Part shown: one piece after another, positions 6,328 to 51,051 of the stretch
Layout: every line of letters begins with the position of its first letter
Position numbering within the stretch: position 1 is the stretch's first letter
NCBI GenBank assembly: GCA_964493525.1
Contig: CAZBOK010000001.1
Location: forward strand, 1 to 51,051
Origin: an uncultured Phycisphaeraceae bacterium
GTDB taxonomy: Bacteria > Planctomycetota > B15-G4 > JADJEK01
Length of the DNA stretch: 51,051 nt
Direction of reading: 5' to 3'
Notes under the pieces: model-generated
Databases searched by the model: none
Seen by the model: only the letters and a program-made list of their open reading frames with translations
What the model was told of the DNA's origin: nothing
Translations under genes and position numbers: made by a program

Positions 6328-6699
6328 GTGCTCGTCGAGCACGGGCACGATCCCGCCACGGATCGGCGCTTCCTGCGGTTGATCGGCGGCGGCATCGAGT
6401 TCGGCGAGCGCGCCGAGGACGCCGGGCGACGCGAGTGGATGGAGGAGCTGGGCGCCGAGCTCGCGGACGTTCGACTGCTCGACGTGCTCGAGGACTTCCT
6501 CGAGCACGCGGGCAGGGTGGGACACGAGATCGTGTTCCTGTTCGAAGCGTCGCTCGCGAACTTCGATCGCTTTGCCCGGGACGAAATCGAGCTCGTGGAG
6601 GCGGACGGCTCGCGTCACGTCGCGAGCTGGGTGTCGATCGACGCGCTTTCGGACGGACCGCTCCCGTTCGTGCCGAAAGCGGCCGCGCGTTGGCTGTGA
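6328..6699 (+). CDS. NUDIX hydrolase (5' end uncertain)
   Basis: Nudix box 'GGGIEFGERAEDAGRREWMEELG' (Gx5Ex7REuxEExG). GTG 6328 is the first ATG/GTG/TTG after the in-frame stop at 6106-6108, but Nudix-like sequence continues upstream of it. Confidence 0.7.
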   Translation: MLVEHGHDPATDRRFLRLIGGGIEFGERAEDAGRREWMEELGAELADVRLLDVLEDFLEHAGRVGHEIVFLFEASLANFDRFARDEIELVEADGSRHVASWVSIDALSDGPLPFVPKAAARWL

Positions 6700-6713
6700 G
6701 CGTGCGTGCGCGA

Positions 6714-7733
6714 TCAACCCATCGTGAGGACGACGCGGAAGCGTGCTTTGCCGGAGAGCATCCGGTCATAGGCCTCCGCGACGCGCTCGAGCGGGAACGA
6801 CTCGTTCATCGATCGCACGCCCGACTGCACGCAGAACGCGAGGGTGTCCTGCGCGTCGATCGACGTGCCCGAGTACCAGCCCTCGACGGTCCGATGCCCG
6901 CCGATCAGGAACGCGGGCGACACCGAGAACGGACCCGCCGCGCCGAGCACGAGGAACTTGCCGTTCGGACCGAGGCCGAGCAGCGTCGCCTGCATCGCGT
7001 CGGCCGCGGTCACCGTCGCGAGGATGACGCGCGCGCCGCCCTGCTTCATCAGCTCCGCCGCGGGATCGACCGCCTGGCTGTCGAGGTAGAGCGACGCGCC
7101 GAGCTTCCGCGCGAGCGGCTCCTTGTCCGCGCCGCGCGCGATCGCGACGGTGCGGAAGCCCATCTTCGCGGCGAACTGCACGCCGAGATGGCCGAGCCCG
7201 CCGAGGCCGAGCACGGCGACGAGATCTCCCGCGCGCGCGCCCGAGTGGCGCAGCGCGTTGAACGTGGTGAGTCCGGCGCAGAGGAGCGGCGCCGCTTCGA
7301 CGCCGGCGAGCGCGGCCGGCACGCGCGCGATCGCCGACGCCGGCGCGACCATGAACTCGGCGTACCCGCCGTCGCTCGTGATCCCGGTGATCTCCGTCGA
7401 CGTGCGGCACGCGAAGAACTCGCCGCGCCGGCACGTGTCGCAATGACCGCAGTATCCGCCGTTCCATCCGACGCCGACGCGGTCGCCGGGCGCGAATCCC
7501 ACGACGCCGGCGCCAAGCGCGTCGATCGTCCCGACCACCTCGTGACCCGGCACCCGCGGGAATCGGATGCCGGGGAAGAGTCCGTCCTTCGTGTGCGCGT
7601 CGCTGTGGCAGATGCCGCACGCCTGCACGCGGATGCGCACCGTGCCCGATCGCGGCTCGGGGATCGGGCGCTCGACCAGCTCGAACGCCGCCTTCGGAGC
7701 GGGGACCTGTGCGACACGCATGGTGACGGGCAT
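6714..7733 (-). CDS. Zn-dependent alcohol dehydrogenase (MDR family)
   Basis: 'ACGICHSDAH','PGHEVVGTIDALGAGV', structural-Zn Cys cluster 'GYCGHCDTCRRGEFFAC', NAD fold 'VAVLGLGGLGHLGVQFA'. RBS GAGAGGA lies upstream of ATG 7733. Confidence 0.9.
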   Translation of the reverse strand: MPVTMRVAQVPAPKAAFELVERPIPEPRSGTVRIRVQACGICHSDAHTKDGLFPGIRFPRVPGHEVVGTIDALGAGVVGFAPGDRVGVGWNGGYCGHCDTCRRGEFFACRTSTEITGITSDGGYAEFMVAPASAIARVPAALAGVEAAPLLCAGLTTFNALRHSGARAGDLVAVLGLGGLGHLGVQFAAKMGFRTVAIARGADKEPLARKLGASLYLDSQAVDPAAELMKQGGARVILATVTAADAMQATLLGLGPNGKFLVLGAAGPFSVSPAFLIGGHRTVEGWYSGTSIDAQDTLAFCVQSGVRSMNESFPLERVAEAYDRMLSGKARFRVVLTMG

Positions 7734-7926
7734 CGGCGGATCCTCTCGCGGCCGCGACCGGTTCGTTCGGGTCGCGGCGAAGAACTTACCGCGCGGGGAA
7801 CGGCGCGCGAGATTCGCGACAGCGGTGACGGAGTTCGAGTCCGGTTCTTGCGATTCGCCTCGCGGCCGGAAGACTTGGCGGCGCTGCTGGACGCGCGGCC
7901 CCCGATCCGCGCCCGTGAGGACCCCG

Positions 7927-38879: not shown

Positions 38880-41800
38880 TCATTGGCAGATGCGCAGCGC
38901 GAGCCCCGGGCTCGCCGAGTACCCCTGCGGCGCGGCCGGGTCGAAGACGATCAACTGAAGGTCCGCCTCCAGTCCGATCCACGCGGAGACGTTCGGGATC
39001 CCGAACGCGACGGTGACGGTGCCCGCTGCCGATGTCGGCAGCGCGAACGTCGTGAGCACCGGCGACGGATCGACGAGCAGCGTGAAACCGTGGACCTGGA
39101 TCGCGGCTCGTGACAGGCCGAGCAGCAGGTACCCGATCGAGTTCGGGTTCACGTGATCGAACGTGATCGTCTCCGTGGTGCCGAGCATCGGTGAACCGGA
39201 CCACGAGATCCCCGGGCGGCCGAGCACGCCCGCAGTCCCCGGCCCATAGAGCGCCGGCGGCGCGCAGTCGATCGCGGTGGAGTGGATGCGGAAGTCTGCC
39301 TCGAGGTCGCCGTTCCACGGGTTGCGCAGCCACGGCCCGAACGGCTGGAACGGCACCGTGACCGGCCGCGGTCGCACGCGTGCGCGCCAGTGATACTGAC
39401 CGGGGGCGAGACCGGTCGCTGTGGCCACGAGGACCGGCACCGCCGTCGTGTCCTTCCACGCGCTGATGCCCGACTGCACCGGCGTGGACGAGCCGAGTGG
39501 CGCGACTTCCCATTCGATCGCGGAGAACGTGCGGCCAGTCGGCGGCAATGACTCGACCTCGATCCGCAATCCGTCCGAATGCGTGCGCGACAGGTGAGCC
39601 ACGGCCGCGCTGTCATCGAGGCGATCCTGACGCGGCATCCGCCACTTGCCCGGCCGTCCATTCCCGAAGTATGCGTACACGTCGCCGCGCGCGTGACCGA
39701 GCGACGTCTCGGTGAGCGGCGCGCCGACCAGGATGTCGGCGGCACCGTCGCCGTTCACGTCGCCGGCACCGCTGAGCGCGCTTGCGTAGCGCGCTCCGGG
39801 GCCGCCGATCGAGGCGAATGCGGCCGTCGGATCGACGCCCGTCGGGCTCCCCAGGTGCTCCACCACGCGCCCCGCGTCGGCGGCGCCCGCATGGTCCCAC
39901 GCAGGCGCGCCGACCAGCAAGTCGGCGAAGCCGTCGCAGTTCACGTCGCCGGCCGTCGCCAACGCCGCCCCGAACGCACAGCCGGTCTGGGCGCCGTCGA
40001 GCACGACCGCGGGAGTCGTCGCTGGAGCACTGATCGCGCCGTGATACACGCTGACTTGCCCGCAATCGATCGCTGATTGGTCAGACTCCGGCGCGCCGAC
40101 CGCGACGTCGGCGAAGCCGTCGCCGTTCACGTCGCCAGCACCACACACCGCTGTGCCGCAGTGCGCGTCGGGCTGGCCGCCCACGACGGACCAGCACGGC
40201 ACCACCTCGGCGCCGAGCGAGTGTCCGCGATAAATCGTCGCGCGGCCCTCGTCGCTTGCGGCGCCGTCGAAGTTGGGCGCGCCGACGATGATGTCGGTGA
40301 ACCCGTCCCGATCGACGTCACCCGCGGTGTCGAGCGCTGCACCGAAGTTCGCGAGCGCTTGCTCGCCATCGATGACCCACAGCGGCGCCGTCGCGAGCCC
40401 GGAGACGCCACCGGGGAACAGGAATGCGCGCCCTTCCCCGACCTCGCCCGCGCGGAACGCCGGCGCGCCGACCAGCACGTCGGCGAAACCATCGCCGTTC
40501 ACGTCGCCGGCTCCGGCGACCGCGGCACCGAAGTGCGCACCGGCTTGCTGACCCTCCGCGAACCAACTCGCCGTGGGGTGAAGGAGGAGATTCGGATCGC
40601 CTCCCCGGAACAGGTAGGCGCGGCCCTCGGTCGGCTGTTCGCCGCTGAAAAACGGCGCGCCGATCACGGCGTCGCAGAATCCGTCCGCGTCGACGTCGCC
40701 GGCGTTCGCGACCGCGGAGCCAAACTCGTCGCCGGCCTCCTCGCCGTCGACGATCCAGGCCGGCCAGTCGTCCGGACCGTGCTCCGCGCCGGAGTAGACC
40801 AGCGCGCGGCCGCGATCGGTCTTCCCACCCGCGTCGAAACCCGGGCAGCCGATCAGCAGTTCGGAGCGTCCATTGCCGTCGAGGTCGCCGAGATTCGCCA
40901 CCGACGCGCCGACGTTCTCGCCGTCCTGCGTCAGGGGGAAGCTCTGCGATTGCACAGCCCACACTTTGAACTCGCTGGTCGGGTTCGGGCCACCGTAATA
41001 GGCGACCACGCGACCCTCTCCGGCCTCGCCGTTCGTGTAGCCGAATGCACCGACCAAGACGTCGGAGAAGCCGTCGCCGTTCACATCGCCGGCGCCCGCG
41101 ACCGAGTACCCGTGGTGCTCGTCCATCGCGCTGCCCTGCGTCTGCCACGAGGGCGCAGCGGGCCAAGGCCAGTCGCCGGGATAGAGCAACGCGCCGCCCT
41201 CGTCGTTTGAACCCAGATTGGGTGCGCCGATGATGAAATCGGCAAAGCCATCGCCATTGACATCGCCAGCTGCGGACATTGCTGCGGAATAGCGATCATC
41301 GACATTTGCGCCGATGGCCGACCAGATCGGAGCCGACGCGAGTGTCTCGAGGCGAGCGGAGCCCACGGACCCCTCGATCGGGATCCGGCCCATCAGGAGA
41401 TCCGGCCAACCGTCCCCGTTTGTGTCCCCGGCGGGAGCGATCGTGTAGCCGAAGACCCGCCTCTCCATTTGTTGATAGACCGTGCTTGGATAAAAGCCGA
41501 AGAAAGCGAACTTTCCAGGACCGGCACTGCTGCCAGCGAACAATTGAACAAAGCCCGCATCCATCGCCAAGGCGACATCGCCGTTCCCACCACCCGTGTA
41601 GAGGTCGGTGAGGGGCGAACTCACCATCACGTCGGAATATCCGTCGAGATTGGCATCCGCTGCGCTTGCGACCGAGAAGCCGAATTGTTCCCCGGCCTGA
41701 GATCCCGCAACGGTCCACACGGGCGCCGCAGCGGGCCCGCCGGGCGCGCCGAGGTAGACGTATGCGGCGCCGACGTCGAGCGCTTCGACGTCGGCCTCGT

Positions 41801-42965
41801 GTGGGTTGCCGGACGAAACCACGGCGACGTGATCGAACAGCGGCGCACCGATGATGATGTCGGAGCGGCCGTCGTCGTTCGTGTCACCGGCGGTCGCGAC
41901 GCAGGTTCCGAAGTGCGCACCGACTTGGTTGTTCTCGCCCGTCCAGACGGGCACGCTCGACATCGAGCCGCTGCCGAGGAACACGTACGCGCGACCTTCG
42001 TCGAGCTCGCCGTTGTCGGCGAACGGCGCGCCGACGATCACGTCGGAGAGGCCATCGCCGTCGACGTCACCGGCAGTGGAGACGGAGAAGCCGAAGCGCG
42101 CGCCGACCTGGTCGCTCTCCGCAATCCAGCTCGGCGCCGGCAGCAGACCGGTGGGGCTGCCGCGGAACACGTAGGCGCGACCTTCCCAGGACTCACCGTT
42201 GCTGAAATAGGGTGCGCCGACGATCACGTCGGAGAAGCCGTCGGCATCGACGTCGCCTGCGCCCGCGCTCGCCGCCCCGAAATGCGCGCCGATCTGGTCG
42301 CCTTCCGCCGACCACGCCGGCTTCGTTGCGAGCGGATCGACGAAGATCGGGTACCGCGCCGCGCGATCATCAACCTGGATCGTCAGCAGGCCCGCGCCGA
42401 GCACGAAGCGCACCGGAAGCGCGCGCCGGTCGGCGTCCCACGCGAGCAGGTGGTCGAACTGGATCGCGCAGTTACCGACCGCATCGCGGAACTCGACGGA
42501 CTCGCCACCCGCGCTCTCGACCGGCACGAGCGATCCGCCGACGTGCATGCGGAGATCGACGCCCGAGTCGTTCGACCGCGCCGGCCGCTCCTCGAGGACG
42601 AAGCCCTGCTCGAGGCCGCGCGCCGCGTTCTCGTACCACTCGACGACGCCGTCGCGCACGATCTCGAGGCGCGAACCGTTCGCCAAGACACGCACGTCCT
42701 TCGCCGGCTCGCCGTCGAGCGACAACGCAAGCGACCACGGCGCGACCGTGCGCGCACACGACTCGATGCGCACTCCGTCCGCGGAGAAGCGCGCGATGAA
42801 CGCGTGGGCGCCGTTTGCTGCGAAGAAGCCGGTGCCGCGTGCGTCGCGCTCGATCGCGTAGGCGGTGTCACGGCGCGCCGATTCTTGCGGCCAGGCCACG
42901 GGCGGCGTGACCAGAGCACTGGCGGCTGCAACGATGAACGAGGCACTCAGAATCTGCGGCGACAT
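38880..42965 (-). CDS. Secreted 1361-aa protein: N-terminal module + 14 FG-GAP repeats + shared C-terminal module
   Basis: RBS GGGGGAGG. Signal 'MSPQILSASFIVAAASALVTPPVAWPQ'. 14 copies of 'FG.....AGDVNGDGF.DV.VGAP'. Confidence 0.85.
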   Translation of the reverse strand: MSPQILSASFIVAAASALVTPPVAWPQESARRDTAYAIERDARGTGFFAANGAHAFIARFSADGVRIESCARTVAPWSLALSLDGEPAKDVRVLANGSRLEIVRDGVVEWYENAARGLEQGFVLEERPARSNDSGVDLRMHVGGSLVPVESAGGESVEFRDAVGNCAIQFDHLLAWDADRRALPVRFVLGAGLLTIQVDDRAARYPIFVDPLATKPAWSAEGDQIGAHFGAASAGAGDVDADGFSDVIVGAPYFSNGESWEGRAYVFRGSPTGLLPAPSWIAESDQVGARFGFSVSTAGDVDGDGLSDVIVGAPFADNGELDEGRAYVFLGSGSMSSVPVWTGENNQVGAHFGTCVATAGDTNDDGRSDIIIGAPLFDHVAVVSSGNPHEADVEALDVGAAYVYLGAPGGPAAAPVWTVAGSQAGEQFGFSVASAADANLDGYSDVMVSSPLTDLYTGGGNGDVALAMDAGFVQLFAGSSAGPGKFAFFGFYPSTVYQQMERRVFGYTIAPAGDTNGDGWPDLLMGRIPIEGSVGSARLETLASAPIWSAIGANVDDRYSAAMSAAGDVNGDGFADFIIGAPNLGSNDEGGALLYPGDWPWPAAPSWQTQGSAMDEHHGYSVAGAGDVNGDGFSDVLVGAFGYTNGEAGEGRVVAYYGGPNPTSEFKVWAVQSQSFPLTQDGENVGASVANLGDLDGNGRSELLIGCPGFDAGGKTDRGRALVYSGAEHGPDDWPAWIVDGEEAGDEFGSAVANAGDVDADGFCDAVIGAPFFSGEQPTEGRAYLFRGGDPNLLLHPTASWFAEGQQAGAHFGAAVAGAGDVNGDGFADVLVGAPAFRAGEVGEGRAFLFPGGVSGLATAPLWVIDGEQALANFGAALDTAGDVDRDGFTDIIVGAPNFDGAASDEGRATIYRGHSLGAEVVPCWSVVGGQPDAHCGTAVCGAGDVNGDGFADVAVGAPESDQSAIDCGQVSVYHGAISAPATTPAVVLDGAQTGCAFGAALATAGDVNCDGFADLLVGAPAWDHAGAADAGRVVEHLGSPTGVDPTAAFASIGGPGARYASALSGAGDVNGDGAADILVGAPLTETSLGHARGDVYAYFGNGRPGKWRMPRQDRLDDSAAVAHLSRTHSDGLRIEVESLPPTGRTFSAIEWEVAPLGSSTPVQSGISAWKDTTAVPVLVATATGLAPGQYHWRARVRPRPVTVPFQPFGPWLRNPWNGDLEADFRIHSTAIDCAPPALYGPGTAGVLGRPGISWSGSPMLGTTETITFDHVNPNSIGYLLLGLSRAAIQVHGFTLLVDPSPVLTTFALPTSAAGTVTVAFGIPNVSAWIGLEADLQLIVFDPAAPQGYSASPGLALRICQ
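39657..42317 (-). repeat. 14 tandem FG-GAP coding repeats (two predicted 7-blade propellers)
   Basis: The GD[VT][ND].DG motif counted 14 times in the translation. Confidence 0.75.
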
Positions 42966-43181
42966 GGAACGCCTCCCCCGAATCGATGGACCGAGCACAG
43001 GCTCCGAGAGTAGCAGCGCCGACGGATTGCGCAGGGGATGGCGGACGCGAGGGTGGTGATTCGATTGACGCGCGGCTCCGATCCCGGGTGCACGCATCGG
43101 GCGGCTGCTCGAGGGGAGGCGCCCTCCTCGACCGTGATCTCGTCCGGCGGCGGTCGTGCGAACGCGCGCACGGCGTCGAGG

Positions 43182-44216
43182 TCACTGCGCGAAAAAGGGG
43201 TTGTCGGCCAGCGGGCCGATGTCGTTGTTGATCCGCTCGACGAACTCCGGCTCGGTGATGAGCCGCGCGCGCAGGAACCGAAGGCGCGCGAGGAAGTCGG
43301 TGAACCCTTCCGCGGATCACCTGGACCGGGACTCAGAGTCGACGCCCCGCGGCGCCCGCACGTCGATCTTCCCCGGCAGACCCATGTGGAACATCTCGTG
43401 AGCGAGGAGCTTCGCCAGCTCGAGATGCGTGGCGTCCGTCTTCGCGAAGCCGATGAAGCAGCGCGGCACCTGCGTGCCGCACACGTTGTCCTCGCGAGGG
43501 CTGATCGCGACGATGGAGAATGCGTCGGAGTCGTCGTCGAACACGGCCCGCTGCTGGCGCACGATCGTTTCCGCCAACTCGAAGATGCGCGGCCGGCCGA
43601 TCTGGAACTGGCCCTGCACCGAGACGAGAACGGGTTTGCCGTCGATGTCGAACGTGTGGAGCGGCGCCGCCCCGCCGCCGAACGTGGCCGTCACGAGCCC
43701 GTCGTAGGAGGCGTCGACCTCGATGTGCCGCGGATCGAGCGCGAGCGACGAGTAGAGGCTCCAGCCGGAGGGAGCGTCCGCGAAGTCGATGGCGTAGTGA
43801 TCGATCTGCGCTGACGCGCCGACGCGCAGCAGCCATTGGCAGCCCGCCACGTGGAAGGAATCGGGCGCGACGTTCGGGCCGAACGAGACGTGACCGAACA
43901 GGCCGGGGTCGTACGCGAGCGTGTAGTCGAGGGAGATCTTGCCGTCGGGTGCGGGCGTGACGAGGCGCTCAGTGGGGGAGGCACCCTCGCGAACTGTGGT
44001 GCCGTTCAGACCTTCGAAGGTAGTGATGTGTTGCTCGAGGGGCAGGCCGCTGTAGAAGTCGACAGGGAGGGAGACGGTGAAGGCGTCTTGCGTGGGGCGT
44101 GTGAAGTCAAGCGCGACGTGGAGTTCGATGCGGTCGGCGATTGGGGTGGGGCGAAGCGTTTAGTGGAGCGAGGCCAGCGAGAGCGTCATCACGAGCGCGA
44201 AAACGGGAGTGCGCAT
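43182..44216 (-). pseudogene. Decayed, 3'-truncated paralogue of the M61 peptidase gene
   Basis: Colinear with 37660-38692 (94/100 nt identical for 37861-37960 versus 43386-43485). In-frame TAA at codon 19 (44160-44162; Tyr in the intact copy). In-frame TGA at 43317-43319 just after the HEMFH motif. Homology ends at about 43195, so the C-terminal third including the PDZ-like domain is absent. Confidence 0.8.
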
Positions 44217-44447
44217 CGAGGTCTCTTTCGCGAGCGGCATACGGAATACAGATCAACTTTTCCCGGTCACTACAGATGTTGGAACGCGACAACGGGGCGC
44301 AACGCATGGAGAAGAAAGTTCCCGATTCTCAATGCGTGTGGTGCCAAGCGGCAGCGTGATCGAATCGCACGAAGCAATTCGCTTCCGAATTCCTCAGCGC
44401 ACAGTTTAGAATGAAACAGACGCGACTAGACTGCCGGTGAGACACAC

Positions 44448-45527
44448 ATGGCGACGAACAGCCTTCCGATTGACAACCCCGGCACGAGCGCAACACTTGC
44501 ATATACACGCTCACGCGGCGCACTCTACATCGGGGACTCACTAGGCGCGATTACACGCAAACCACTCGTCGAATTCCGCGGCAAGGTTCAGCTCGTCTTT
44601 ACATCGCCACCATTTCCGCTTAATCGCAAGAAACGATACGGGAATCTCCATGGGGAAGAATATGTCGAGTGGCTCGCAGCCTATGCAGTGCCCCTCACCG
44701 AGTATCTGACCGCCAACGGGTCGATCGTGATCGAAGTGGGAAACGGATGGGATCCTGGCCAGCCCACCGTCTCAACTCTCGCCATCGAAGCACTCCTGGC
44801 GTTCAAGAAAAAAGCCCAACTACATCTATGTCAGGAATTCATCTGCTTCAATCCAGCGCGCCTGCCAAGCCCGGCCCAGTGGGTCACCATCGAGCGTTGC
44901 AGAGTAAAGGACGCCTTCACGCGAGTGTGGTGGATGTCTCCGACGCCGCGCCCCAAAGCGGATAACGGCCGTATCCTCACCGAATACAGTGATGCGATGC
45001 GGCGACTGCTAGCTCGAGGTACATACAACCCCGGAGCGCGCCCATCTGAGCATCACATTGGGGAGACTTCGTTTCTGGCGAACAATGGGGGGGCGATTCC
45101 ACCCAATGTGTTAATTCCTTCGGCCACCGCGCTGGCGCAGGAAATCCTAGCAGCGGAGAGCCAGATCACAGATGTCCTTACGATCGCAAATACGTCGATG
45201 GCCGATCCATATCAGCGCCACTGCCGAGAGAATCACATTCCTCAACATCCTGCGCGCATGCCAATGAAGCTTGTGCAGTTCTTCATCGACTTCCTGACTG
45301 ACCCTGGAGACGTCATACTCGATCCATTCGCGGGAACAAACTCCACAGGATTCGTCGCCGAACTCCGTGAGCGTCGATGGGTGGGTATTGAGGCCGATGA
45401 ACACTACGCCCGCACATCTGAAGAGCGTTTTAAGCATTACGAACTGACGGGCGTTAACCCTCTCTTTGGCGAATCGCCTCGACCTGCCTCGCAAAGCGGG
45501 CTCGGAGCACGTCAAGAAACGTCTTGA
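44448..45527 (+). CDS. Beta-class exocyclic-amino DNA methyltransferase (N4-C or N6-A), M.PvuII-like
   Basis: Motif IV 'LVFTSPPFPL' near the N-terminus and motif I 'VILDPFAGTNSTG' near the C-terminus (IV-TRD-I order). Other blocks: 'FNPARLPSPAQWV','RVKDAFTRVWW','NGGAIPPNVL','HPARMPMKLVQFFI'. SPPF is the variant I recall for M.PvuII (m4C). Confidence 0.85.
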   Translation: MATNSLPIDNPGTSATLAYTRSRGALYIGDSLGAITRKPLVEFRGKVQLVFTSPPFPLNRKKRYGNLHGEEYVEWLAAYAVPLTEYLTANGSIVIEVGNGWDPGQPTVSTLAIEALLAFKKKAQLHLCQEFICFNPARLPSPAQWVTIERCRVKDAFTRVWWMSPTPRPKADNGRILTEYSDAMRRLLARGTYNPGARPSEHHIGETSFLANNGGAIPPNVLIPSATALAQEILAAESQITDVLTIANTSMADPYQRHCRENHIPQHPARMPMKLVQFFIDFLTDPGDVILDPFAGTNSTGFVAELRERRWVGIEADEHYARTSEERFKHYELTGVNPLFGESPRPASQSGLGARQETS

Positions 45528-46143
45528 GCTGCTCGATTTCTGTAAGCGGAATCGGGCGCGAGCCGCCGTGTACTCCACGGGTGATGTCCGTGCGGTGGGT
45601 CCGCCCACACCATTCCTTCGCGTGACCTATTGCGGTTTCAATCGCACGCACGCGGTCATTTAGCTCGTTTGCGGTGTTCTTTGAGAGGCCGAGAAACGCA
45701 GCGGCTCCGAGCCAGGTCCGCGGCTCGTCGCGATCATCTAGCCACGCTCGAAACGGCGGACTCTCAACGAACGGCGCGATTGCAACGTAGATCGGTCCAG
45801 GCGACCGGGAAGAAGGACCTTCAATTCCTCGGCTACCGTGAATCGCGGCTGCTTCCGCCGCCCCTAGGTCTGTCAATCGATAATAGTTTGGCTTGGTCTT
45901 CTCAACAAATCGCCTCCGCACCGGATTGTCTTTCTTGGACTGGCCCATGATCTCCATCATGACTCGCTTGTGATCCGGGTGCGTTGTTTCGAACCCACGC
46001 AATCCAAATCGATTGTTGTCGCGACGCCATGCGGCGACGGTCAACTCCCATTCCGTGAATTCACGCTTACCGGCAGCCGCCAAGTCCGCAGCGGCTAGAA
46101 GGATCTCTTGCGTCGCAGTTCGCCTGTTCGTTGGCGAACTCAC
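45454..46143 (-). CDS. Hypothetical 229-aa protein, translationally coupled to the GHKL-ATPase gene
   Basis: The GTG start (46143-46141) overlaps the upstream TGA (46142-46140). The 3' end overlaps the convergent MTase gene by 74 bp. No motif recognised. Confidence 0.6.
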   Translation of the reverse strand: MSSPTNRRTATQEILLAAADLAAAGKREFTEWELTVAAWRRDNNRFGLRGFETTHPDHKRVMMEIMGQSKKDNPVRRRFVEKTKPNYYRLTDLGAAEAAAIHGSRGIEGPSSRSPGPIYVAIAPFVESPPFRAWLDDRDEPRTWLGAAAFLGLSKNTANELNDRVRAIETAIGHAKEWCGRTHRTDITRGVHGGSRPIPLTEIEQLKTFLDVLRARFARQVEAIRQREG

Positions 46144-48512
46144 GTCGCGCGATCTCCGGCATCGGCGAGCACGTCCGCGATGTTGTAGGCATCCTCAATG
46201 AACGGCGCACATTCGGTTTCCGCCGTGGCGAATCGCTCGCGAAACTGAAGTTCAGTCAACGGCGCCTCACGCGCCTGTTCGAATACCCACAGTCGCTTGA
46301 GAATCTCGAAACACTTTATTGCGACGAAGTGGTAGTAGGTTTCCGTCGCGATGCCGGCCATGCCCTTGCGTCCACCTCTTCCGCGACGCGCCTGAATCGA
46401 TTCCCGGCTATCCGGATTGATAAATATCACGTTCTCGAACGCCGGGTCAAAATCATTGATAGTCGGCAAGTGCTCAGATGGCATGATCGTGCGCTGTTCC
46501 AACGGATAGTGATCCATGCCCGGCGCGGACGTGCCGCAGAGCAAGATGATCGGGATCTCTCCTCCGGCATTACCACCAGTGCCTCGCCGTGGCAGAACTC
46601 GCTCCGATCCCACGCGCGCCAATGCCGATGCCGTATCGATCTGGTTGCTTCCCCAACGAACGCGAATGGTCGCGGTGCCTTCGCATGAACCGGATACGTA
46701 GAGACCATTACGACTGATCCGCCCCATGCCGATCTCATCGATGGAAGCGTCGTGTAGCAAGTCGTCTCTGACTCCCCCCGCCGTCATGTATTCGATCTTG
46801 ATGGCCAGGTGTTCGCCCTGCAGTAGTTGTCGGTCAGGGATGCCGGAGATGCTGGCACCCGTACAGCACACCAACTCGATCGTCACGCGATTCGACTTGA
46901 CGCTCCCATCTTCGCTTTCGAAGGACACGACCGTCTTGCCGACGGATAGGCCGGTCACTTGGTTCGAGGCGTCAACAGTAGCGTGGTTAGCCGGATCCAA
47001 CTTCGCAACAAGTCTCGGCGATGCGACGGGTCGGAGCTCTCCTGCGGCGGTCTGCTCAAACGCCTTCACTCGCAGTGGCACGGTTGCACCAACCGCGATC
47101 GCGATGCTTGCAGATCTCCCCTCAAGCTCTATGACGTTAACGAGATCGCCCCTCGGAGGAGATAGTGGGCGTGACTTCTTCGTGCCGTCCGTCCCGTCTC
47201 CTTGTTGCCCCTCGCCGGCACCCCGATCGCCGCGATCGCGCTCCTTCAGAAACCTGCGCATCAGATCGCGGAGCTTCTGAAGGCTTTCATTCACTTTGTC
47301 GCGATCCTCGGCCCGATGTTCCTTGGCCGTGGCCTGTTGGATTCTGTCCGCGAGTGTCTTGACCTGGGTGGCGGTCCAATCCTGGAGTCCGCGAATCAGT
47401 GGAGTATCGTTGAGTGACTTCCGATCCGCGCCAGTGACGTGCTCACCGTCAATAGCGGGAACTCGAAGCTCACCGAACACGAATCCTGAAGACGCGCCTG
47501 GACTCAGGTCCGCAACGCTCCAGAGGCCAACGACGTTCCTGTTGTTTCGGACCCGAATGACGTGGAGAGGTCGCATGTCCTCGGTACGTAATGACCGAGC
47601 ACTGGTACGTAGAGTGAGTACGCGGCTGCGGGCGTCGCCAGTACCCGTACGCACGGGGTCGCCGGTCTGAGGGTCGATTACTTCGTCGGGCACCGGAACC
47701 ACCAGTGTCTCAAGGAACCCAGGGAAAGGCTCAGGATATTCGACCTTCGCTGGCGAACCACCGATGATCTGTCCATCGACAATGAACCACACCGCGCAAG
47801 ACTCAAGGGTGAGCGCAGCTTGCGGATGCGTCTCAACGGACCGACGAATCTCCGCAGCTAGTCGGCGCACCGTTTCTTCCCTCGCGCGCGCCCAATCCTT
47901 CACAGAGTTTACCTGCGCGACCGTGTAGGTCTGTCGTGCATCGAACACTCTCTGTGCTTGTTCTGGCAAGTGATCGAATCGAAGCCCGATGTCGGCAAGC
48001 GCCTTGTCGAATTGCTTCCGAGGCACATCGACGCGCTGATCCTCGACAGCCTTTCCACCCTCGATCGCAATCCCAGGCTTAAATCGCGTGCGTTCGTTAT
48101 CGTTCTCATAACCCATCCGCGTTCGACGATGGTCATGGCACGATTCGAAGGAAGAATCCGAAGTCGAACCGAGCACCATGAAAGCCTTGCCGCCGTTGCC
48201 ATGCCCACCTTCGATGTCGGCAGCCTTGTCGCGAGCATTGGCAGTTGGATCCGACCATGTTTCCCATCTCATGAATTGGTCTGCAGTGGCTCCTGCGAAG
48301 TCAATAACAGCAATCGCCCTGTCGCCCGTGTTGACGGCGACAACTATCGTGCGCTGGTCCGGCTCCGTGATGCCGAGACGGCTGTATTGGTCCTTCGCAT
48401 TCTTGATCAGCTCAGGAAGTCCGTCCCTGACGCCCTGAAATCGGGACAAGAGCTGCATGAGCGTGTGGGGAACGTCGATCGGAATCCGTTCCCGGAACTG
48501 ATACCTTGCCAT
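46140..48512 (-). CDS. GHKL (Bergerat-fold) ATPase fused to two Big_2-like Ig domains and an unknown C-terminal domain
   Basis: N-box 'ELIKNAKDQ', degenerate G1 'IDFAGAT', G2 'GGHGNGGKAF'. Ig-like 'VGATVPLRVKA...ATVDASNQVTGLSVGKTVVSFESEDGSVKSNRVTIEL' and 'GEHLAIKIEY...ISRNGLYVSGSCEGTATIRV'. No signal peptide. ATG 48512 has GGGGA 6 nt upstream; ATG 48518 is an alternative. Confidence 0.7.
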   Translation of the reverse strand: MARYQFRERIPIDVPHTLMQLLSRFQGVRDGLPELIKNAKDQYSRLGITEPDQRTIVVAVNTGDRAIAVIDFAGATADQFMRWETWSDPTANARDKAADIEGGHGNGGKAFMVLGSTSDSSFESCHDHRRTRMGYENDNERTRFKPGIAIEGGKAVEDQRVDVPRKQFDKALADIGLRFDHLPEQAQRVFDARQTYTVAQVNSVKDWARAREETVRRLAAEIRRSVETHPQAALTLESCAVWFIVDGQIIGGSPAKVEYPEPFPGFLETLVVPVPDEVIDPQTGDPVRTGTGDARSRVLTLRTSARSLRTEDMRPLHVIRVRNNRNVVGLWSVADLSPGASSGFVFGELRVPAIDGEHVTGADRKSLNDTPLIRGLQDWTATQVKTLADRIQQATAKEHRAEDRDKVNESLQKLRDLMRRFLKERDRGDRGAGEGQQGDGTDGTKKSRPLSPPRGDLVNVIELEGRSASIAIAVGATVPLRVKAFEQTAAGELRPVASPRLVAKLDPANHATVDASNQVTGLSVGKTVVSFESEDGSVKSNRVTIELVCCTGASISGIPDRQLLQGEHLAIKIEYMTAGGVRDDLLHDASIDEIGMGRISRNGLYVSGSCEGTATIRVRWGSNQIDTASALARVGSERVLPRRGTGGNAGGEIPIILLCGTSAPGMDHYPLEQRTIMPSEHLPTINDFDPAFENVIFINPDSRESIQARRGRGGRKGMAGIATETYYHFVAIKCFEILKRLWVFEQAREAPLTELQFRERFATAETECAPFIEDAYNIADVLADAGDRAT

Positions 48513-49187
48513 ACACATTCCCCAAGCAGCAACTGCCGAGTAGCGCGAGGCAACGATTCCAACGACAACTAGCGAGCGCTTACGACTGCACCCGAGCGAT
48601 GAGGCGTGCTGTCAACTCCGCTGGATAACGACCGGATCTTCGTGATCCGATGCCCGGAAGTCAATCGGTCGGCGCTCAGTCGCCTCGTCGGTCGCTTTAC
48701 TGGCGCGCGGATGTATTCGGGACACTGTGGATTGGAATTGGAGCAAGAGTGTTCAACACCTCGCACCGAAGCCGGGCACGCTCGTCAGCGCCTCGCTAGT
48801 TTCGGGTGTTGTCGGCAGGGCAATCGACACCGACCCGTCCAAGTACTCGCCCTTCATGCGCGTCTTTGAGAGCCTTGTGCGATCACAAGCGACTGTCGAA
48901 CTGGAGCTTCCACTGTTGAGGCGGTCGCGGGAAGCCGTGGGATCCCTTGAACGCAGGTCACGCCTCTTCGTTGCCCGGGCTCGACATGCAGGACTCGTTC
49001 GACCCGCAATCCCTCGTGGCCACGAGAGCGATCGTCGAGGAGAAACTGCAGAAGAGGGGGCATGGTCCCACACAGGGCTCGGGTGACTCGGAGCGTTCAA
49101 AGCTCCCCGCGACCACGCTCCAGAGTACATGCACCTTTCAGGGATCGCGATACCGGGAGTCGCCCTCAGTTGCGAGGGCAGTGCAGC

Positions 49188-51051
49188 TCACACGAACGAT
49201 GACGGGATCGACCGCAACAAGTCCGATGCGGGCTGACCATGCCGCTTTGCTGCTCTCAACCCCACCACCGCCTCCATCACCGCATACTGCTCCCCGTCAA
49301 ACCCCGCGACAAACCTCCCACCTCTCACATCCCCGCGCATCTCCATCCTTCTCAGCACCCGCAGCACATCCCGCCACGGCACCTTCGAGAACGCCCAGCG
49401 CTCCTTGCTCGCCGTCATCCGGAACACGACGCCCGTCCTTCGGAGCAGCACGCGCGCGACGAACTCGGCGTCGGTCATCGCCAATTGAAGCGGCGCGCTC
49501 TCCGCTGACTCGACTCCCCGCAGCCGACTGAACCTTCCGGTCCCGCCCGAGCCGCGCACTCCCTCGAACAAGGCCCGCCTCCGCCGGCTCGGCGGAACGA
49601 TCAATCCGCGCACGGCGGCAAACGAGTCCGCCGTCGCCAGGCCGTGCGCGATCAACGACTGCAGCGCGGCCTCCAATTGGTTCGGAAGCAGCTTCGCCCT
49701 GCGCGCGATCTCCGCGGGGAACAGCGCGCCGTGCTGGTCGAGCAAGCCGAGCACTTCCTTCGCGTCGCCGCTCAACGCCTCGATCGTCTCCGGCGTCGTC
49801 GGCTCGGCGATCGACAGCCACTGATCCAAGTCGTCGCGCTTCACGAGCGTCATCGGCATCGCGCGCATCGATGCGTTGCCGGCGCCGAAGAATCGTCCCC
49901 ACGTGACCTCGCCGCCGAGCGTCAACTGGTCGAGCCACTCCCTCCGATACCCCTGCACCCGCGCGGGCAGGATCGTGCGCTCCCACTCGGGCGCGGGCGC
50001 TTCCCAGCCGGCGAGCTGCTCGATGACCGTCCGCACGCCGTGCGGGCCTTCGAGCCGGTGGCCTTCCGCCGCGTGCTGCCACTGCGCGAGGAACTGCTCG
50101 AACACCGCGGCGCTGACCGGCTCGATCTCCTTGCGCAATCGTTCGAGCATCCGGCGCCGGATGCGGATCAGCAGGCGTCGCTCGCACCAGCACTCGCGCC
50201 CGCGCCAGCGCGCGCGGAGCACGTGGCCTTCGGCATCGAGCTCCTTCAGCGTCAACAACTCGGCGTGCATCGAATCGCCGGGCTCGCTCGCGAAGACGGG
50301 CCCGAGCGCTTCGAGCCGGCCGCGCGTTACCGTCTTCTCGTCGCGGCTCGCTTCCGCCGCATACCAGCGCTCGCCGTCGCGCACGACGCGGCCGGCGGCG
50401 GCGAGCGCGTCGATCCACGGACGCCACGCGGTCGCCTCGCTTTCCGTCACGAACCCCATCCACGTCAGTGCCTCATGCACCTCCTCGGCATTCCTCGGAT
50501 CCGGCCACGCCTCGTCCTTCACCGCCATCACCGCCGCGTCGTCGAGTTCTCCCGCCTCCGCGTCCGACTCCGGCAGCACGCCGGCCGTGATCACCGCGCG
50601 CGTCCTGCGCTCCTCGAGCGGAGCGTCATCGAGGAACGCGTACGGCCGCGCGTTCACCACCTCGTGCGCGAGCGGCGACGGCTTCGGCGTGTCGACGAAG
50701 CGGGTTTCGATCGCGCCCGACTGCATCCCCGCGACGACCTCGAGCATCCCGTCGGCGTCCATCGATTCGTTCAGGCAGTCTTCGATCGTCTGCCGCACGA
50801 GCGGGTGCTCCATCGGCACCGGCAGGTCGGGAGTCGTCAGCGTCTCGGGGCACGCGTTCGCCTGCGGGAAGGCGGCGGTGAGGAAGTCGTTCGCGCGCAT
50901 CCGCTGCAGGATCAAAGGCACGCGCGCGCCGTTGTTCATGCGGTCCATCAACAGTGAACGGCCGACGTTCCAGCGCCAGCGGTTGCCGAAGATCGGCGTC
51001 TGCAGCACCGCCTGGATCAGCACGTCCTTCGCGCTGTTCGGATGCAGCAGC
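49188..51051 (-). CDS. lhr: Lhr-like large ATP-dependent helicase, C-terminal part (gene runs off the window)
   Basis: The frame stays open to the window edge. 'PIFGNRWRWNVGRSLL','LILQRMRANDFL','PLAHEVVNARPYAFLDDAPLEERRTRAV' are typical of the Lhr DEAD/H-associated and C-terminal domains. Confidence 0.7.
   Translation of the reverse strand, partial: LLHPNSAKDVLIQAVLQTPIFGNRWRWNVGRSLLMDRMNNGARVPLILQRMRANDFLTAAFPQANACPETLTTPDLPVPMEHPLVRQTIEDCLNESMDADGMLEVVAGMQSGAIETRFVDTPKPSPLAHEVVNARPYAFLDDAPLEERRTRAVITAGVLPESDAEAGELDDAAVMAVKDEAWPDPRNAEEVHEALTWMGFVTESEATAWRPWIDALAAAGRVVRDGERWYAAEASRDEKTVTRGRLEALGPVFASEPGDSMHAELLTLKELDAEGHVLRARWRGRECWCERRLLIRIRRRMLERLRKEIEPVSAAVFEQFLAQWQHAAEGHRLEGPHGVRTVIEQLAGWEAPAPEWERTILPARVQGYRREWLDQLTLGGEVTWGRFFGAGNASMRAMPMTLVKRDDLDQWLSIAEPTTPETIEALSGDAKEVLGLLDQHGALFPAEIARRAKLLPNQLEAALQSLIAHGLATADSFAAVRGLIVPPSRRRRALFEGVRGSGGTGRFSRLRGVESAESAPLQLAMTDAEFVARVLLRRTGVVFRMTASKERWAFSKVPWRDVLRVLRRMEMRGDVRGGRFVAGFDGEQYAVMEAVVGLRAAKRHGQPASDLLRSIPSSFV

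What the first reader, a model, noticed from the sequence alone, without database searches (positions are those of the whole stretch)
44217..49187. Low-GC 5-kb islet: PvuII-like amino-MTase convergent with a GHKL-ATPase/Ig-domain gene and a coupled 229-aa gene; candidate uncharacterised methylation-linked defence module
Seen:
- GC drops abruptly. Hand counts give 48-55 % for lines 44401, 44581 and 47701, versus 63-73 % for lines 40081, 42961 and 50101.
- The drop runs exactly between the start codon of a decayed M61 paralogue (44216) and the stop codon of the Lhr-like helicase gene (49188).
- Only three convincing ORFs lie inside. One is a beta-class amino-MTase (44448-45527, +; 'FTSPPF' precedes 'DPFAGTNSTG'). 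Convergent to it is a two-gene operon (48512 to 45454, -) joined by a GTGA stop-start overlap.
- The operon encodes a 790-aa protein (GHKL ATPase motifs, two Big_2-like Ig domains, an unassigned ~170-aa C-terminal domain) and a 229-aa protein with no motif I recognise.
- I see no restriction endonuclease fold, C-protein, integrase or transposase.

Established: GHKL/MORC-type ATPases have been described by comparative genomics as components of R-M-like systems (Iyer, Abhiman and Aravind). An MTase plus an NTPase plus an unknown partner in a compositionally foreign islet is the usual signature of an immunity module.

Inference: the trio is a self/non-self methylation-based defence system. The ATPase/Ig protein would act as sensor or motor and the 229-aa protein, or the unknown C-terminal domain, as effector. 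By gene content it does not match BREX, DISARM, Dnd/Ssp, Druantia, Gabija, Lamassu, Zorya or classical type I-IV R-M.
Basis: partly seen in the sequence, partly recalled or inferred. Interest (0 to 1): 0.85.

Follow-up and report, generated by a model that had tools for sequence, protein, structure and literature searches.

The report
Unnamed methylase-linked GHKL ATPase defence cassette
A recently acquired 5-kb island carries a DNA methylase together with a tightly coupled pair of unnamed genes, an ATP-driven clamp-like protein and a DNA-binding partner; the same trio recurs across bacteria and archaea on mobile elements and looks like a new restriction-modification-type immune module with no recognisable DNA-cutting enzyme.

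Summary
The islet has 58.3% GC against 70.0 ± 1.3% for the rest of the window. It holds a PvuII-like N4-cytosine methylase (43.5% identical to M.PvuII), convergent with a GTGA-coupled operon of a 790-aa and a 229-aa protein.

- **790-aa protein:** predicted GHKL ATPase plus transducer, two long helices, two Big_2 Ig domains and a small C-terminal domain.
- **229-aa protein:** a winged helix plus a helical domain.
- **Databases:** neither protein matches Pfam, NCBIfam, PADLOC, PHROGs or PDB sequences.

Across 91 non-redundant loci from six bacterial phyla and DPANN archaea, the 229-aa partner accompanies an intact 790-aa gene in 61 of 62 assessable loci. A DNA methylase is adjacent in 58 of 58. 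Four unrelated methylase types fill that position. The cassette sits on integrative elements, a conjugative plasmid and toxin-antitoxin or Abi islands.

No nuclease fold was found in the trio. About 12% of relatives embed a McrBC-like or MTaX1-HNH nuclease. The window copy also lacks an upstream gene that all its close relatives carry.

Best reading: a new GHKL (MORC/paraMORC-like) variant of methylation-based self/non-self discrimination. The effector step is unknown. Defence itself is inferred, not shown.

The parts
44217..44447 (.). Left junction and methylase upstream region (GC 0.537)
   Evidence: GC falls here. Nucleotide homology to the nearest relatives L001 and L002 starts only at 44508, inside the methylase gene. 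No att-like flanking repeat was found.
44448..45527 (+). Beta-class N4-cytosine-type DNA methyltransferase, PvuII-like (359 aa)
   Evidence: PF01555 at 8.7e-28. PADLOC MTase_II PDLC03323 at 2e-77. M.PvuII 1boo at 5e-67, 43.5% identity over 285 aligned positions. SPPF at residues 53-56 precedes DPFAGTNSTG. dN/dS 0.045-0.062 against L001 and L002.
45454..46143 (-). 229-aa partner protein: N-terminal winged helix (aa ~10-105, 45829-46116) plus C-terminal helical domain (aa ~115-228, 45460-45801). The GTG start overlaps the stop of the upstream gene.
   Evidence: No Pfam, NCBIfam, PADLOC, PHROGs or PDB sequence hit. AlphaFold pLDDT 87. Foldseek gives only generic wHTH matches (F93, MarR, PadR) and a weak MukF match at E = 2.4e-3. 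495 homologues were found. Present in 61 of 62 assessable loci. dN/dS 0.02-0.03.
46140..48512 (-). 790-aa GHKL-type ATPase (an alternative ATG at 48518 gives 792 aa)
   Evidence: No hit in any HMM library. 172+ homologues in the 90%-clustered database. 589 representatives at 50% clustering with E <= 1e-3. AlphaFold pLDDT 81. dN/dS 0.06-0.07.
47433..48512 (-). ATPase gene, aa 1-360: GHKL (Bergerat) ATP-binding domain plus S5-like transducer
   Evidence: Superfamily-invariant residues E34, K37, N38, D71, G74, G105, G107 and K109. Foldseek: MORC2 9cdj at 1e-7, MORC3/4, Hsp90, MutL-NTD 9n2k, GyrB 3cwv, each aligned over about 410-450 columns. HATPase_c_3 hits, sub-threshold, in 5 of 47 relatives.
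47235..47402 (-). ATPase gene, aa 371-426: two long helices, followed by a disordered Gly/charged linker (aa 428-452)
   Evidence: AlphaFold secondary structure and pLDDT profile.
46593..47150 (-). ATPase gene, aa ~455-640: two Big_2-type Ig-like beta domains
   Evidence: Foldseek: LigA 8gyr at 2.9e-8 and Big_2-CBM56 7quz. The superfamily profile hits teneurin-like Big_2 repeats in PDB at 8.5e-19. Pfam Big_2 in 20 of 47 relatives. Absent from the L033-type clade.
46143..46565 (-). ATPase gene, aa ~650-790: small alpha/beta-plus-helical C-terminal domain of unknown function ('ILLCG ... WIN' motifs)
   Evidence: No PDB or Pfam relative, even with a profile. Conserved in all three clades, but only P654, P670, W697 and N699 are superfamily-wide. 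It is therefore unlikely to hold a conserved nuclease site.
48513..49187 (.). 675-bp spacer upstream of the operon (GC 0.614). A fourth gene ('up209') sits at this position in every close relative that can be assessed.
   Evidence: No convincing ORF. No trace of up209 by tblastn or hmmsearch. No similarity to any fetched locus or to the rest of the window. No Rfam hit. No above-chance promoter match.

Best explanation
The islet is a horizontally acquired, restriction-modification-like module for telling self from non-self DNA, of an undescribed type.

**Shown.**
- The conserved core is a DNA methyltransferase (here a PvuII-like N4-cytosine enzyme) plus a translationally coupled pair.
- The pair is a GHKL/transducer ATPase with intact ATP-binding and hydrolysis residues, and a winged-helix partner.
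- The trio travels as a unit between distant phyla on mobile elements.

**Inferred mechanism.**
- The methylase marks host DNA.
- The ATPase-partner complex acts on unmarked incoming DNA. As in MutL, MORC, Hsp90 and topoisomerase VI-B, ATP binding would dimerise the GHKL heads, so that the complex clamps or loops DNA.
- The winged-helix protein anchors the complex to DNA, or bridges the ATPase dimer.
- Sequence reading is more likely done by the methylase itself (type I/III logic) or by the variable Ig region than by the partner. The partner's putative recognition helix is unchanged across loci with unrelated methylases.
- The final step is open. It could be cleavage by an unrecognised active site, hand-over to an accessory nuclease (McrBC-like or MTaX1-HNH, present in about 12% of loci but not here), or a nuclease-free block of replication, as proposed for BREX.

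The window copy is intact and under purifying selection, but it lacks the upstream gene, possibly a regulator, that its closest relatives carry.
For: **Co-occurrence**.
- The partner is present in 61 of 62 assessable loci and a methylase is adjacent in 58 of 58, over 91 non-redundant loci.
- The 62 assessable loci are those with a near-full-length ATPase match. A solo ATPase copy (L095) and two truncated remnants (L108, L109) fell outside this count.

**Methylase displacement.** Four non-homologous methylases occupy the same slot:
- PvuII-like in 48 loci;
- a permuted N6_N4 type in 8, including archaeal L013;
- a Dcm-Vsr fusion in L033;
- a DPPF type in L080.

**Tight coupling.** The stop/start overlap or abutment of the pair, and the 3'-3' overlap with the methylase, are kept in unrelated hosts.

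**Co-inheritance.** Identities of the three proteins fall together across loci. dN/dS is 0.02-0.09.

**GHKL assignment**.

**Links to methylation discrimination and DNA cleavage.**
- One family member (P0242) carries an N-terminal MTaX1 'methylase-associated' domain. That domain is predicted to discriminate modified DNA (PMC10853773).
- MTaX1-HNH genes follow the partner gene in L116 and L053, and one lies next to the methylase in L075.
- McrB-like AAA_5 plus McrC-like cassettes lie inside the module in eight loci from two deep clades.

**Mobility and context.**
- Window homology to its nearest relatives is limited to the three genes.
- The GC break is about 9 SD.
- Neighbours include tyrosine and serine integrases, a D5 primase, TraI, MazE/PIN, AbiEi/Eii, DarT/Macro, BrnT/A and NmeDI_C.
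- One copy lies on a conjugative Ensifer plasmid.

**Precedent.**
- GHKL+S5 ATPases were predicted as R-M components (PMC2292703).
- One of them, paraMORC3/VcSduA, has been shown to defend against phage (PMC12137116).
Against: - No nuclease fold or catalytic motif was found in either unknown protein by Pfam, NCBIfam, PADLOC, PHROGs, PDB sequence or profile search, or Foldseek.
- The C-terminal domain could not be fold-searched on its own.
- No experiment, methylome or phage challenge exists for any member.
- CAGCTG depletion is the strongest of the 64 palindromic hexamers in this window (2 observed, about 9-10 expected). Across all carrier loci it is only generically depleted, with O/E 0.66, rank 4. 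There is therefore no clear restriction footprint.
- The module is rare: 20 hits in 185,579 species genomes. That scan depends on exact peptide patterns, so this is a lower bound.
- The module is absent from the phage GenBank set.
- A solo ATPase copy exists (L095), as do truncated or decayed ones (L108/L109, L056).
- The window copy lacks the upstream gene of its clade, so it may be deregulated or incomplete.
Confidence: 0.65

Rival explanations
1. It is a classical type II-like R-M system. One of the two unknown proteins is simply a restriction endonuclease of a fold too divergent to recognise, and the GHKL ATPase only regulates it.
For: - The gene order is typical of type II systems: a methylase convergent with the R operon.
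- The methylase is a close M.PvuII homologue.
- Many REases escape HMM detection.
- Main-clade-specific invariant polar residues exist in the C-terminal domain: R674, N699, S702, E704, K733, K739, E754 and E765.
Against: - Those residues are not kept in the two other clades that retain the same domain.
- The predicted C-terminal domain has only two strands, which does not fit PD-(D/E)xK.
- The partner is wHTH plus helices.
- Some lineages add separate nucleases. That would be redundant if the core already cut DNA.
Confidence: 0.2
2. It is mainly a selfish addiction (post-segregational killing) cassette that stabilises mobile elements, not a phage defence. Loss of the methylase exposes the host chromosome to the ATPase-partner pair.
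For: - It is always cargo of integrative elements or plasmids, next to toxin-antitoxin pairs.
- The convergent, overlapping gene layout could give antisense control.
- It is rare and patchily distributed.
Against: - This is not exclusive of defence, because classical R-M systems do both.
- In the window the cassette sits in the chromosome with no mobility gene left and is still under purifying selection.
Confidence: 0.1
3. It is an epigenetic or repair module, not immunity. It would be a MutL-like, methyl-directed repair or a MORC-like silencing apparatus that reads the mark written by the methylase.
For: - It has a GHKL plus transducer architecture like MutL and MORC.
- One variant is linked to a Dcm-Vsr fusion, echoing very-short-patch repair.
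- The core has no nuclease.
Against: - The distribution is sporadic, island-like and horizontally transferred, on mobile elements among defence and TA genes.
- McrBC-like and HNH nucleases are embedded in the module.
- Housekeeping repair genes are not expected to show a 12-point GC deficit.
Confidence: 0.05

Closest known systems
MORC / paraMORC1-5 GHKL+S5 ATPases of predicted restriction-modification operons (Iyer, Abhiman & Aravind 2008, PMC2292703)
   Same: - N-terminal GHKL domain with intact ATP motifs, followed by a transducer domain.
- Sporadic, laterally mobile distribution.
- Genomic linkage to DNA methylases, including a Dcm-Vsr variant.
- C-terminal family-specific extension.
   Different: - The window protein has no HATPase_c_3 hit. 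Relatives reach it only sub-threshold.
- There is no SF2 helicase partner.
- The obligate partner is a 229-aa winged-helix protein not described for those families.
- Two Big_2 Ig domains are inserted.
- There is no RE-fold, TIR or HxH C-terminal domain.
VcSduA / Shedu type I-D (paraMORC3: GHKL + DUF4263 nuclease), experimentally anti-phage (PMC12137116)
   Same: A GHKL ATPase head thought to control a DNA-directed effector, located in a defence island.
   Different: VcSduA is a single protein with a PD-(D/E)xK DUF4263 domain and no methylase. Here there is no DUF4263, an obligate methylase and an obligate wHTH partner.
PvuII restriction-modification system
   Same: The methylase is 43.5% identical to M.PvuII along its whole length. 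CAGCTG is the most depleted palindromic hexamer in the window.
   Different: No R.PvuII or C.PvuII homologue. The restriction slot is filled by the ATPase-partner pair. Specificity is not determined.
BREX (methylation-based phage exclusion without a recognised nuclease)
   Same: - The logic matches: a site-specific methylase marks self.
- The ATPase-containing partner proteins carry no identifiable nuclease.
- Regulators and accessory genes are variable.
   Different: No PglZ, BrxC, BrxL or PglX homologues (PADLOC). The core has three genes instead of six or more. The ATPase is GHKL, not P-loop.
McrBC / LlaJI-type AAA+ GTPase-nuclease restriction
   Same: In eight related loci a McrB-like AAA_5 protein (PDB McrB hits at 1e-8 to 1e-6) and a McrC-like gene lie between the pair and the methylase.
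   Different: The window has no such cassette. The McrC-like assignment rests on gene position and a D...EVK motif only.

Membership tests
Classical type II R-M | Site-specific DNA methyltransferase | tested here: met
   PF01555, PADLOC MTase_II at 2e-77, M.PvuII at 5e-67. Catalytic SPPF and AdoMet motifs are present.
Classical type II R-M | Cognate endonuclease with a known nuclease fold (PD-(D/E)xK, HNH, GIY-YIG, PLD, half-pipe) | tested here: not met
   No hit in Pfam, NCBIfam, PADLOC, PHROGs or PDB sequences. Foldseek of both models shows no nuclease.
MORC/paraMORC R-M-associated GHKL ATPases | Bergerat-fold ATP-binding motifs (ExxxNxxD, DxGxG, GxxGxG/K) | tested here: met
   E34, N38, D41, D71, G74 and G103-K109 are invariant in the family. 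E34, K37, N38, D71, G74, G105, G107 and K109 are invariant in 47 superfamily members.
MORC/paraMORC R-M-associated GHKL ATPases | S5-fold transducer domain after the GHKL domain | tested here: inconclusive
   Foldseek alignments of about 410-450 columns to MORC2/3/4, MutL-NTD, Hsp90 and GyrB cover both domains. They rest on a predicted model, and TM-scores normalised to the full query are low.
MORC/paraMORC R-M-associated GHKL ATPases | Match to the family HMM (Pfam HATPase_c_3, PF13589) | tested here: not met
   No hit for the window protein at E <= 0.1. Five of 47 relatives hit it, the best at 24.3 bits against a cut-off of 25.
MORC/paraMORC R-M-associated GHKL ATPases | Operon partner that is an SF2 helicase and/or RE-fold/HNH nuclease | tested here: not met
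   The window has neither. Relatives carry a McrBC-like cassette or an MTaX1-HNH gene in about 12% of loci.
MORC/paraMORC R-M-associated GHKL ATPases | Genomic linkage to a DNA methylase | tested here: met
   58 of 58 assessable loci.
Shedu type I-D (paraMORC3) | C-terminal DUF4263 PD-(D/E)xK nuclease domain | tested here: not met
   No Pfam or PADLOC hit. The C-terminal domain has no conserved D/ExK motif.
BREX / DISARM / Druantia / Dnd-Ssp / Mza / Hma / MADS and other PADLOC v2 systems | Signature proteins (PglZ, BrxC, DrmA/B, DruE, DndD, MzaB-E and others) | tested here: not met
   PADLOC-DB v2.0.0 gives no hit for the ATPase, the partner or the accessory genes in any of the three clades. 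DefenseFinder and REBASE were not available.
McrBC/LlaJI-like restriction | AAA_5 GTPase plus McrC nuclease | tested here: not met
   Absent from the window. Present in eight related loci.
Defence island / mobile-element cargo | Compositional foreignness and neighbourhood of mobility, TA and defence genes | tested here: met
   GC 0.583 against 0.700. Homology to relatives is limited to the cassette. Contexts with integrases, TraI, PIN/MazE, AbiE, DarTG and BrnTA. The window itself retains no mobility gene.
Anti-phage defence system (functional) | Protection against phage or foreign DNA when expressed | not testable with these tools
   No experimental data were found in the literature searches.

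The most novel reading that the evidence does not exclude
The trio is a nuclease-free immune system. A prokaryotic MORC-like GHKL clamp, loaded with a kleisin-like winged-helix partner, topologically entraps or compacts DNA that lacks the host methyl mark and so silences or stalls it. Nucleases (McrBC-like, MTaX1-HNH) are optional add-ons. This would be a bacterial counterpart, and possibly an evolutionary source, of methylation-linked MORC silencing in eukaryotes.
Probability: 0.2. Interest if true: 0.88.

Novelty: new variant of a known kind. Interest (0 to 1): 0.72.

Why it matters
- **An unnamed superfamily.** It defines a protein pair and a three-gene module. The superfamily has about 590 representatives at 50% clustering and spans six bacterial phyla and DPANN archaea. 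No curated library names it.
- **A clean comparative signal.** The module is tied to DNA methylation about as firmly as comparative genomics can show. Four unrelated methylases are swapped into the same slot.
- **A place among nuclease-free systems.** The minimal version has no detectable nuclease, which puts it beside BREX among methylation-based systems of unknown mechanism. It is much smaller (two proteins plus a methylase), so it should be easier to reconstitute.
- **A model for GHKL/MORC ATPases.** It offers a simple bacterial model for how these ATPases couple ATP-driven dimerisation to reading DNA methylation, an open question for eukaryotic MORCs.
- **A possible new N4mC-sensitive tool.**
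- **A practical route.** A cultured carrier exists: Ensifer adhaerens CTYH.Ch1, plasmid pCTYH.Ch1_3.

Tried and rejected
- **Direct family assignment.** Pfam, NCBIfam, PADLOC, PHROGs and PDB sequence searches gave nothing for the two unknown proteins.
- **C-terminal domain as nuclease.**
  - A profile of the domain against PDB and Pfam gave only noise: zinc-finger linker-like matches at E >= 0.1.
  - Cross-clade alignment shows no conserved catalytic residues.
  - I considered Toprim, HNH and PD-(D/E)xK readings and dropped each, because the motifs or secondary structure do not fit.
- **The 229-aa protein as HEPN, Spo11-like or a kleisin.**
  - There is no Rx4-6H motif and no Toprim domain.
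  - The MukF match is weak (E = 2.4e-3, TM 0.31), so it remains only a lead.
  - The BFVD search gave generic wHTH matches only.
- **Remnant of the clade's upstream gene in 48513-49187.** None was found by tblastn, HMM or tblastx.
- **Integration scars.** No att-like direct repeats flank the islet, and there is no tRNA.
- **Promoter and terminator scan.** Matches did not exceed shuffled controls.
- **Rfam.** No hit.
- **PvuII-site avoidance as a restriction footprint.** It ranks first in this window, but depletion across the 30 carrier loci is not specific. I report it as inconclusive.
- **Phage GenBank records.** No homologue.
- **Literature.** No paper describing this trio was found.
- **Superfamily alignment for the metagenome scan.** The tool rejected it, so I used the main-clade alignment instead.

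Full report
**1. The observation**

The compositional break is real.
- The islet 44217-49187 has GC 0.583. The 393 same-size windows in the rest of the sequence give 0.700 ± 0.013.
- All 500-bp windows inside the islet are at or below 0.604. None of the 175 outside falls below 0.62.
- Third-position GC of the three genes is 0.59-0.65, against 0.83-0.89 in the flanking genes.

- On the right is the C-terminal part of an Lhr-type helicase gene at 49188-51023 (DEAD_assoc, WH3_Lhr, WH4_Lhr).
- On the left, a reading frame starting at 44216 has three in-frame stops and an HEMFH motif. It gives only a sub-threshold Peptidase_M61 hit (E = 0.005).

The ORFs are also as described.
- The methylase lies at 44448-45527 (+).
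- The 790-aa gene lies at 46140-48512 (-).
- The 229-aa gene lies at 45454-46143 (-). Its GTG start overlaps the TGA of the upstream gene (GTGA at 46143-46140).
- The methylase and the 229-aa gene overlap by 74 bp, tail to tail.

**2. What the three proteins are**

The methylase belongs to PF01555.
- It matches the crystal-structure sequence of M.PvuII at E = 5e-67, with 43.5% identity over 285 aligned positions.
- SPPF lies before the AdoMet motif, which is the beta-class, N4-cytosine-type order.

The 790-aa and 229-aa proteins have no hit in Pfam, NCBIfam, PADLOC v2, PHROGs or PDB sequences.

An alignment of 22 homologues shows invariant Bergerat-fold motifs: E34-x3-N38-x2-D41, D71-F-A-G74, and G103-H-G-N-G-G-K109.

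An AlphaFold model of the 790-aa protein (mean pLDDT 81) has five parts:
- a GHKL plus transducer region (aa 1 to about 360);
- two long helices (aa 371-426);
- a disordered linker;
- two beta-sandwich domains (aa about 455-640);
- a small alpha/beta-plus-helical C-terminal domain (aa about 650-790).

Foldseek against PDB aligns the first ~430 residues with MORC2/3/4, Hsp90-family proteins, MutL-NTD and GyrB (E about 1e-7 to 1e-6). It aligns the beta region with tandem Big_2 domains.

Family-level sequence evidence agrees.
- Among 47 superfamily members, 20 hit Pfam Big_2 (best 3.8e-12).
- Five hit HATPase_c_3 just below threshold.
- The superfamily profile hits Big_2 repeats in PDB at 8.5e-19.

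The 229-aa protein (pLDDT 87) is an N-terminal winged helix plus a helical C-terminal domain. Structural matches are generic wHTH proteins. There is also a weak MukF (kleisin) match at E = 2.4e-3 and TM 0.31, which I treat only as a lead.

**3. Is it a system?**

I collected 117 loci, of which 91 are non-redundant.
- Sources were species-representative genomes, viral contigs, metagenomes, look-ups of encoding contigs, and one plasmid record.
- Carriers include Planctomycetota, Acidobacteriota, Alphaproteobacteria, a MAG labelled Exiguobacterium, Dehalococcoidia, Armatimonadota, and Woese- and Pacearchaeota.

Co-occurrence is almost complete.
- The 229-aa partner accompanies a near-full-length ATPase gene in 61 of 62 assessable loci. 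The exception, L056, is a decayed copy with a frameshifted ATPase and a truncated methylase.
- Outside that count are a solo ATPase copy (L095) and two N-terminal remnants (L108, L109).
- A DNA methylase is adjacent in 58 of 58 assessable loci.

The methylase is not always the same protein.
- 48 loci have the PvuII-like enzyme.
- Eight, including the archaeal L013, have a permuted N6_N4 type.
- One (L033) has a Dcm-Vsr fusion.
- One (L080) has a 608-aa DPPF-type enzyme.

Non-orthologous displacement within a fixed slot is strong evidence that what matters is methylation, not a particular methylase.

The three genes also evolve as a unit.
- Their identities fall together across loci.
- All three are under strong purifying selection relative to the nearest relatives, with dN/dS 0.02-0.09.
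- The stop/start overlap or abutment of the pair, and the 3'-3' overlap with the methylase, recur in unrelated hosts.

**4. Mobility and context**

- Nucleotide homology between the window and its closest relatives (L001 and L002, 78-83% protein identity) runs only from 44508 to 48512. That is the three genes and nothing else.
- Elsewhere the cassette sits at the cargo end of several kinds of mobile element: tyrosine-integrase/D5-primase elements, elements with large serine recombinases, an integrative element with TraI and ParA, and a conjugative Ensifer adhaerens plasmid.
- Its neighbours include MazE/PIN, AbiEi/AbiEii, DarT/Macro, BrnT/BrnA and NmeDI_C.
- In many hosts the module's GC is lower than that of its flanks.
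- The window retains no mobility gene, tRNA or att-like repeat.

**5.

*(a) A variable fourth gene.* It lies directly upstream of the ATPase gene in 33 of 59 assessable loci.
- A 75-87-aa helical protein occurs in 19 loci.
- A ~209-aa protein with a wHTH-like C-terminus ('up209') occurs in 10.
- A larger protein of about 227-323 aa, with an N-terminal zinc ribbon in the L013 copy, occurs in 4 loci, including the archaeal ones.
- MazE/PIN pairs take that position in L004 and L022.

Every close relative of the window copy (70-81% identity) that can be assessed has up209. The window does not. Its 675-bp spacer at 48513-49187 shows no trace of up209 and no similarity to anything else I fetched. 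By position these genes resemble R-M controller genes. That is an inference.

*(b) Three clades of the ATPase superfamily.*
- The superfamily has 589 representatives at E <= 1e-3.
- One clade lacks the Ig domains altogether (L033, P0348).
- Superfamily-wide invariants are the ATP-site residues plus P275, R364, W697 and N699.
- The C-terminal domain is kept in all clades but has no conserved acidic or histidine cluster. It is more likely an interaction or dimerisation domain than a nuclease.

*(c) Real nucleases appear as optional inserts inside the module.*
- A cassette of an unknown ~480-aa protein, a McrB-like AAA_5 ATPase and a McrC-like protein lies between the pair and the methylase in eight loci from two deep clades. 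The methylase is always convergent with the McrC-like gene.
- An MTaX1-HNH gene follows the partner gene in L116 and L053, and one lies next to the methylase in L075.
- One ATPase (P0242) has MTaX1 fused at its N-terminus. MTaX1 is a 'methylase-associated' domain predicted to discriminate modified DNA (PMC10853773).

*(d) The partner is probably not the sequence reader.* Its putative recognition helix (YPDHKRVMxEhM) is unchanged in main-clade loci that carry three unrelated methylase types. The methylase itself (type I/III logic) or the variable Ig region are better candidates.

**6. Mechanism**

*Shown:*
- a methylase-linked, mobile, selected three-gene unit;
- an ATPase of the GHKL class with its catalytic residues intact;
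- a winged-helix partner.

*Inferred:*
- The methylase marks self DNA.
- The ATPase-partner complex acts on unmarked DNA by ATP-driven head dimerisation, which clamps or loops DNA as in MutL, MORC and topoisomerase VI-B.
- The outcome is one of three: cleavage by an unrecognised site, hand-over to accessory nucleases where they are present, or a nuclease-free block.

I give 0.65 to the general model. I split the effector question roughly evenly between 'hidden nuclease' and 'no nuclease'.

The PvuII site CAGCTG is the most depleted palindromic hexamer in this window (2 observed, about 9-10 expected). Across all carrier loci its depletion is generic (O/E 0.66, rank 4 of 64). Specificity therefore remains open.

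**7. Comparison with known systems**

- The concept of GHKL+S5 ATPases in R-M operons was set out by Iyer, Abhiman and Aravind (PMC2292703).
- One such family, paraMORC3/VcSduA, has since been shown to defend against phage as a Shedu variant (PMC12137116).
- The present family meets the architectural criteria and the methylase linkage. It fails the HATPase_c_3 HMM, has no helicase or nuclease partner in its core, and has a distinctive obligate wHTH partner and Ig insert.
- It is not BREX, DISARM, Druantia, Dnd/Ssp, Mza, Hma or any PADLOC v2 candidate.
- RefSeq annotates all of its proteins in the Ensifer plasmid as hypothetical.
- I found no paper describing it.
- DefenseFinder and REBASE could not be queried.

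**8. Verdict**

It is a genuine, undescribed methylation-linked module, best filed as a new variant of the GHKL/MORC-type R-M-like systems.
- The proposed effectors are not supported, and defence has not been demonstrated.
- The window copy is intact but lacks the upstream gene of its clade.
- Interest is high for a specialist. The system is small, widespread and unnamed, with no recognisable nuclease, and a cultured carrier exists for experiments.

Noticed in passing
window 43098-44216 (-): A reading frame with a signal-peptide-like start, three in-frame stop codons and an HEMFH zinc-protease motif. It gives only a sub-threshold Peptidase_M61 hit (E = 0.005). It is probably a pseudogene abutting the islet.
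   Followed up: partly
window 48513-49187: A 675-bp spacer of intermediate GC (0.614) with no credible ORF, no Rfam hit and no similarity to any fetched locus. It occupies the position, and roughly the size, of the ~209-aa upstream gene that close relatives of the cassette carry.
   Followed up: yes
L001 9344-9973; L002, L003, L005, L006, L018, L035-L040, L042: An unnamed ~209-aa protein family lies directly upstream of the ATPase gene in the window's own clade. It has a helical N-terminus, a disordered linker and a wHTH-like C-terminus (motifs YPxF.R..., QHGRxGY). No Pfam or PADLOC hit. It may be a controller.
   Followed up: partly
L024 9740-9967; L026 9757-10020; 19 non-redundant loci: A second, unrelated upstream gene family of 75-87 aa (REKF..LAE.R.N.A...IGNLSN..Y), with no database match. 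A third small gene of 87-96 aa (L024 9411-9674, L022 13125-13415, L005, L048) also recurs near the module.
   Followed up: partly
L031 10988-14812; L008 6230-9156; L034 (Ensifer plasmid) 4908-7891; L053, L059, L061, L070, L117: A three-gene cassette is embedded between the ATPase-partner pair and the methylase, in two gene orders and two deep clades. It comprises an unknown ~480-aa protein, a McrB-like AAA_5 ATPase and a McrC-like protein with a D...EVK motif. The methylase is always convergent with the McrC-like gene.
   Followed up: partly
L116 12126-13127; L075 2081-3004; L053 11382-11978; protein P0242: Genes encoding MTaX1 (methylase-associated X1) fused to an HNH nuclease lie directly after the partner gene in L116 and L053, and next to the methylase in L075. 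In P0242 the MTaX1 domain is fused to the N-terminus of the ATPase itself.
   Followed up: partly
L033 7180-11656: A short variant of the system. The gene order is partner first, then a 660-aa ATPase without Ig domains, followed by a C5-cytosine methylase fused to a Vsr-like mismatch endonuclease. It lies next to a large serine recombinase.
   Followed up: partly
L034 = NZ_CP118613.1 54211-62548: A cultured carrier. The conjugative plasmid pCTYH.Ch1_3 of Ensifer adhaerens CTYH.Ch1 holds the full module with the McrBC-like cassette. The ATPase, its partner, the small upstream gene and the McrC-like gene are annotated as hypothetical proteins.
   Followed up: no
window, whole (host part): CAGCTG, the PvuII site, is the most under-represented of the 64 palindromic hexamers (2 observed, about 9-10 expected) and is absent from the islet. 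Across all carrier loci the depletion is not specific.
   Followed up: yes
L095 7842-10532; L108, L109; L056: Solo or decayed copies exist. L095 has a solo 896-aa ATPase with an acidic insert and a G103R change. L108 and L109 have N-terminal 246-aa remnants. L056 has a frameshifted ATPase with a truncated methylase and no partner.
   Followed up: partly
window 38880-43097 (-): A 1405-aa secreted-looking protein made of many FG-GAP/VCBS-like 'GDVNGDGxxD' repeats lies just upstream of the islet's left flank. It was not examined.
   Followed up: no
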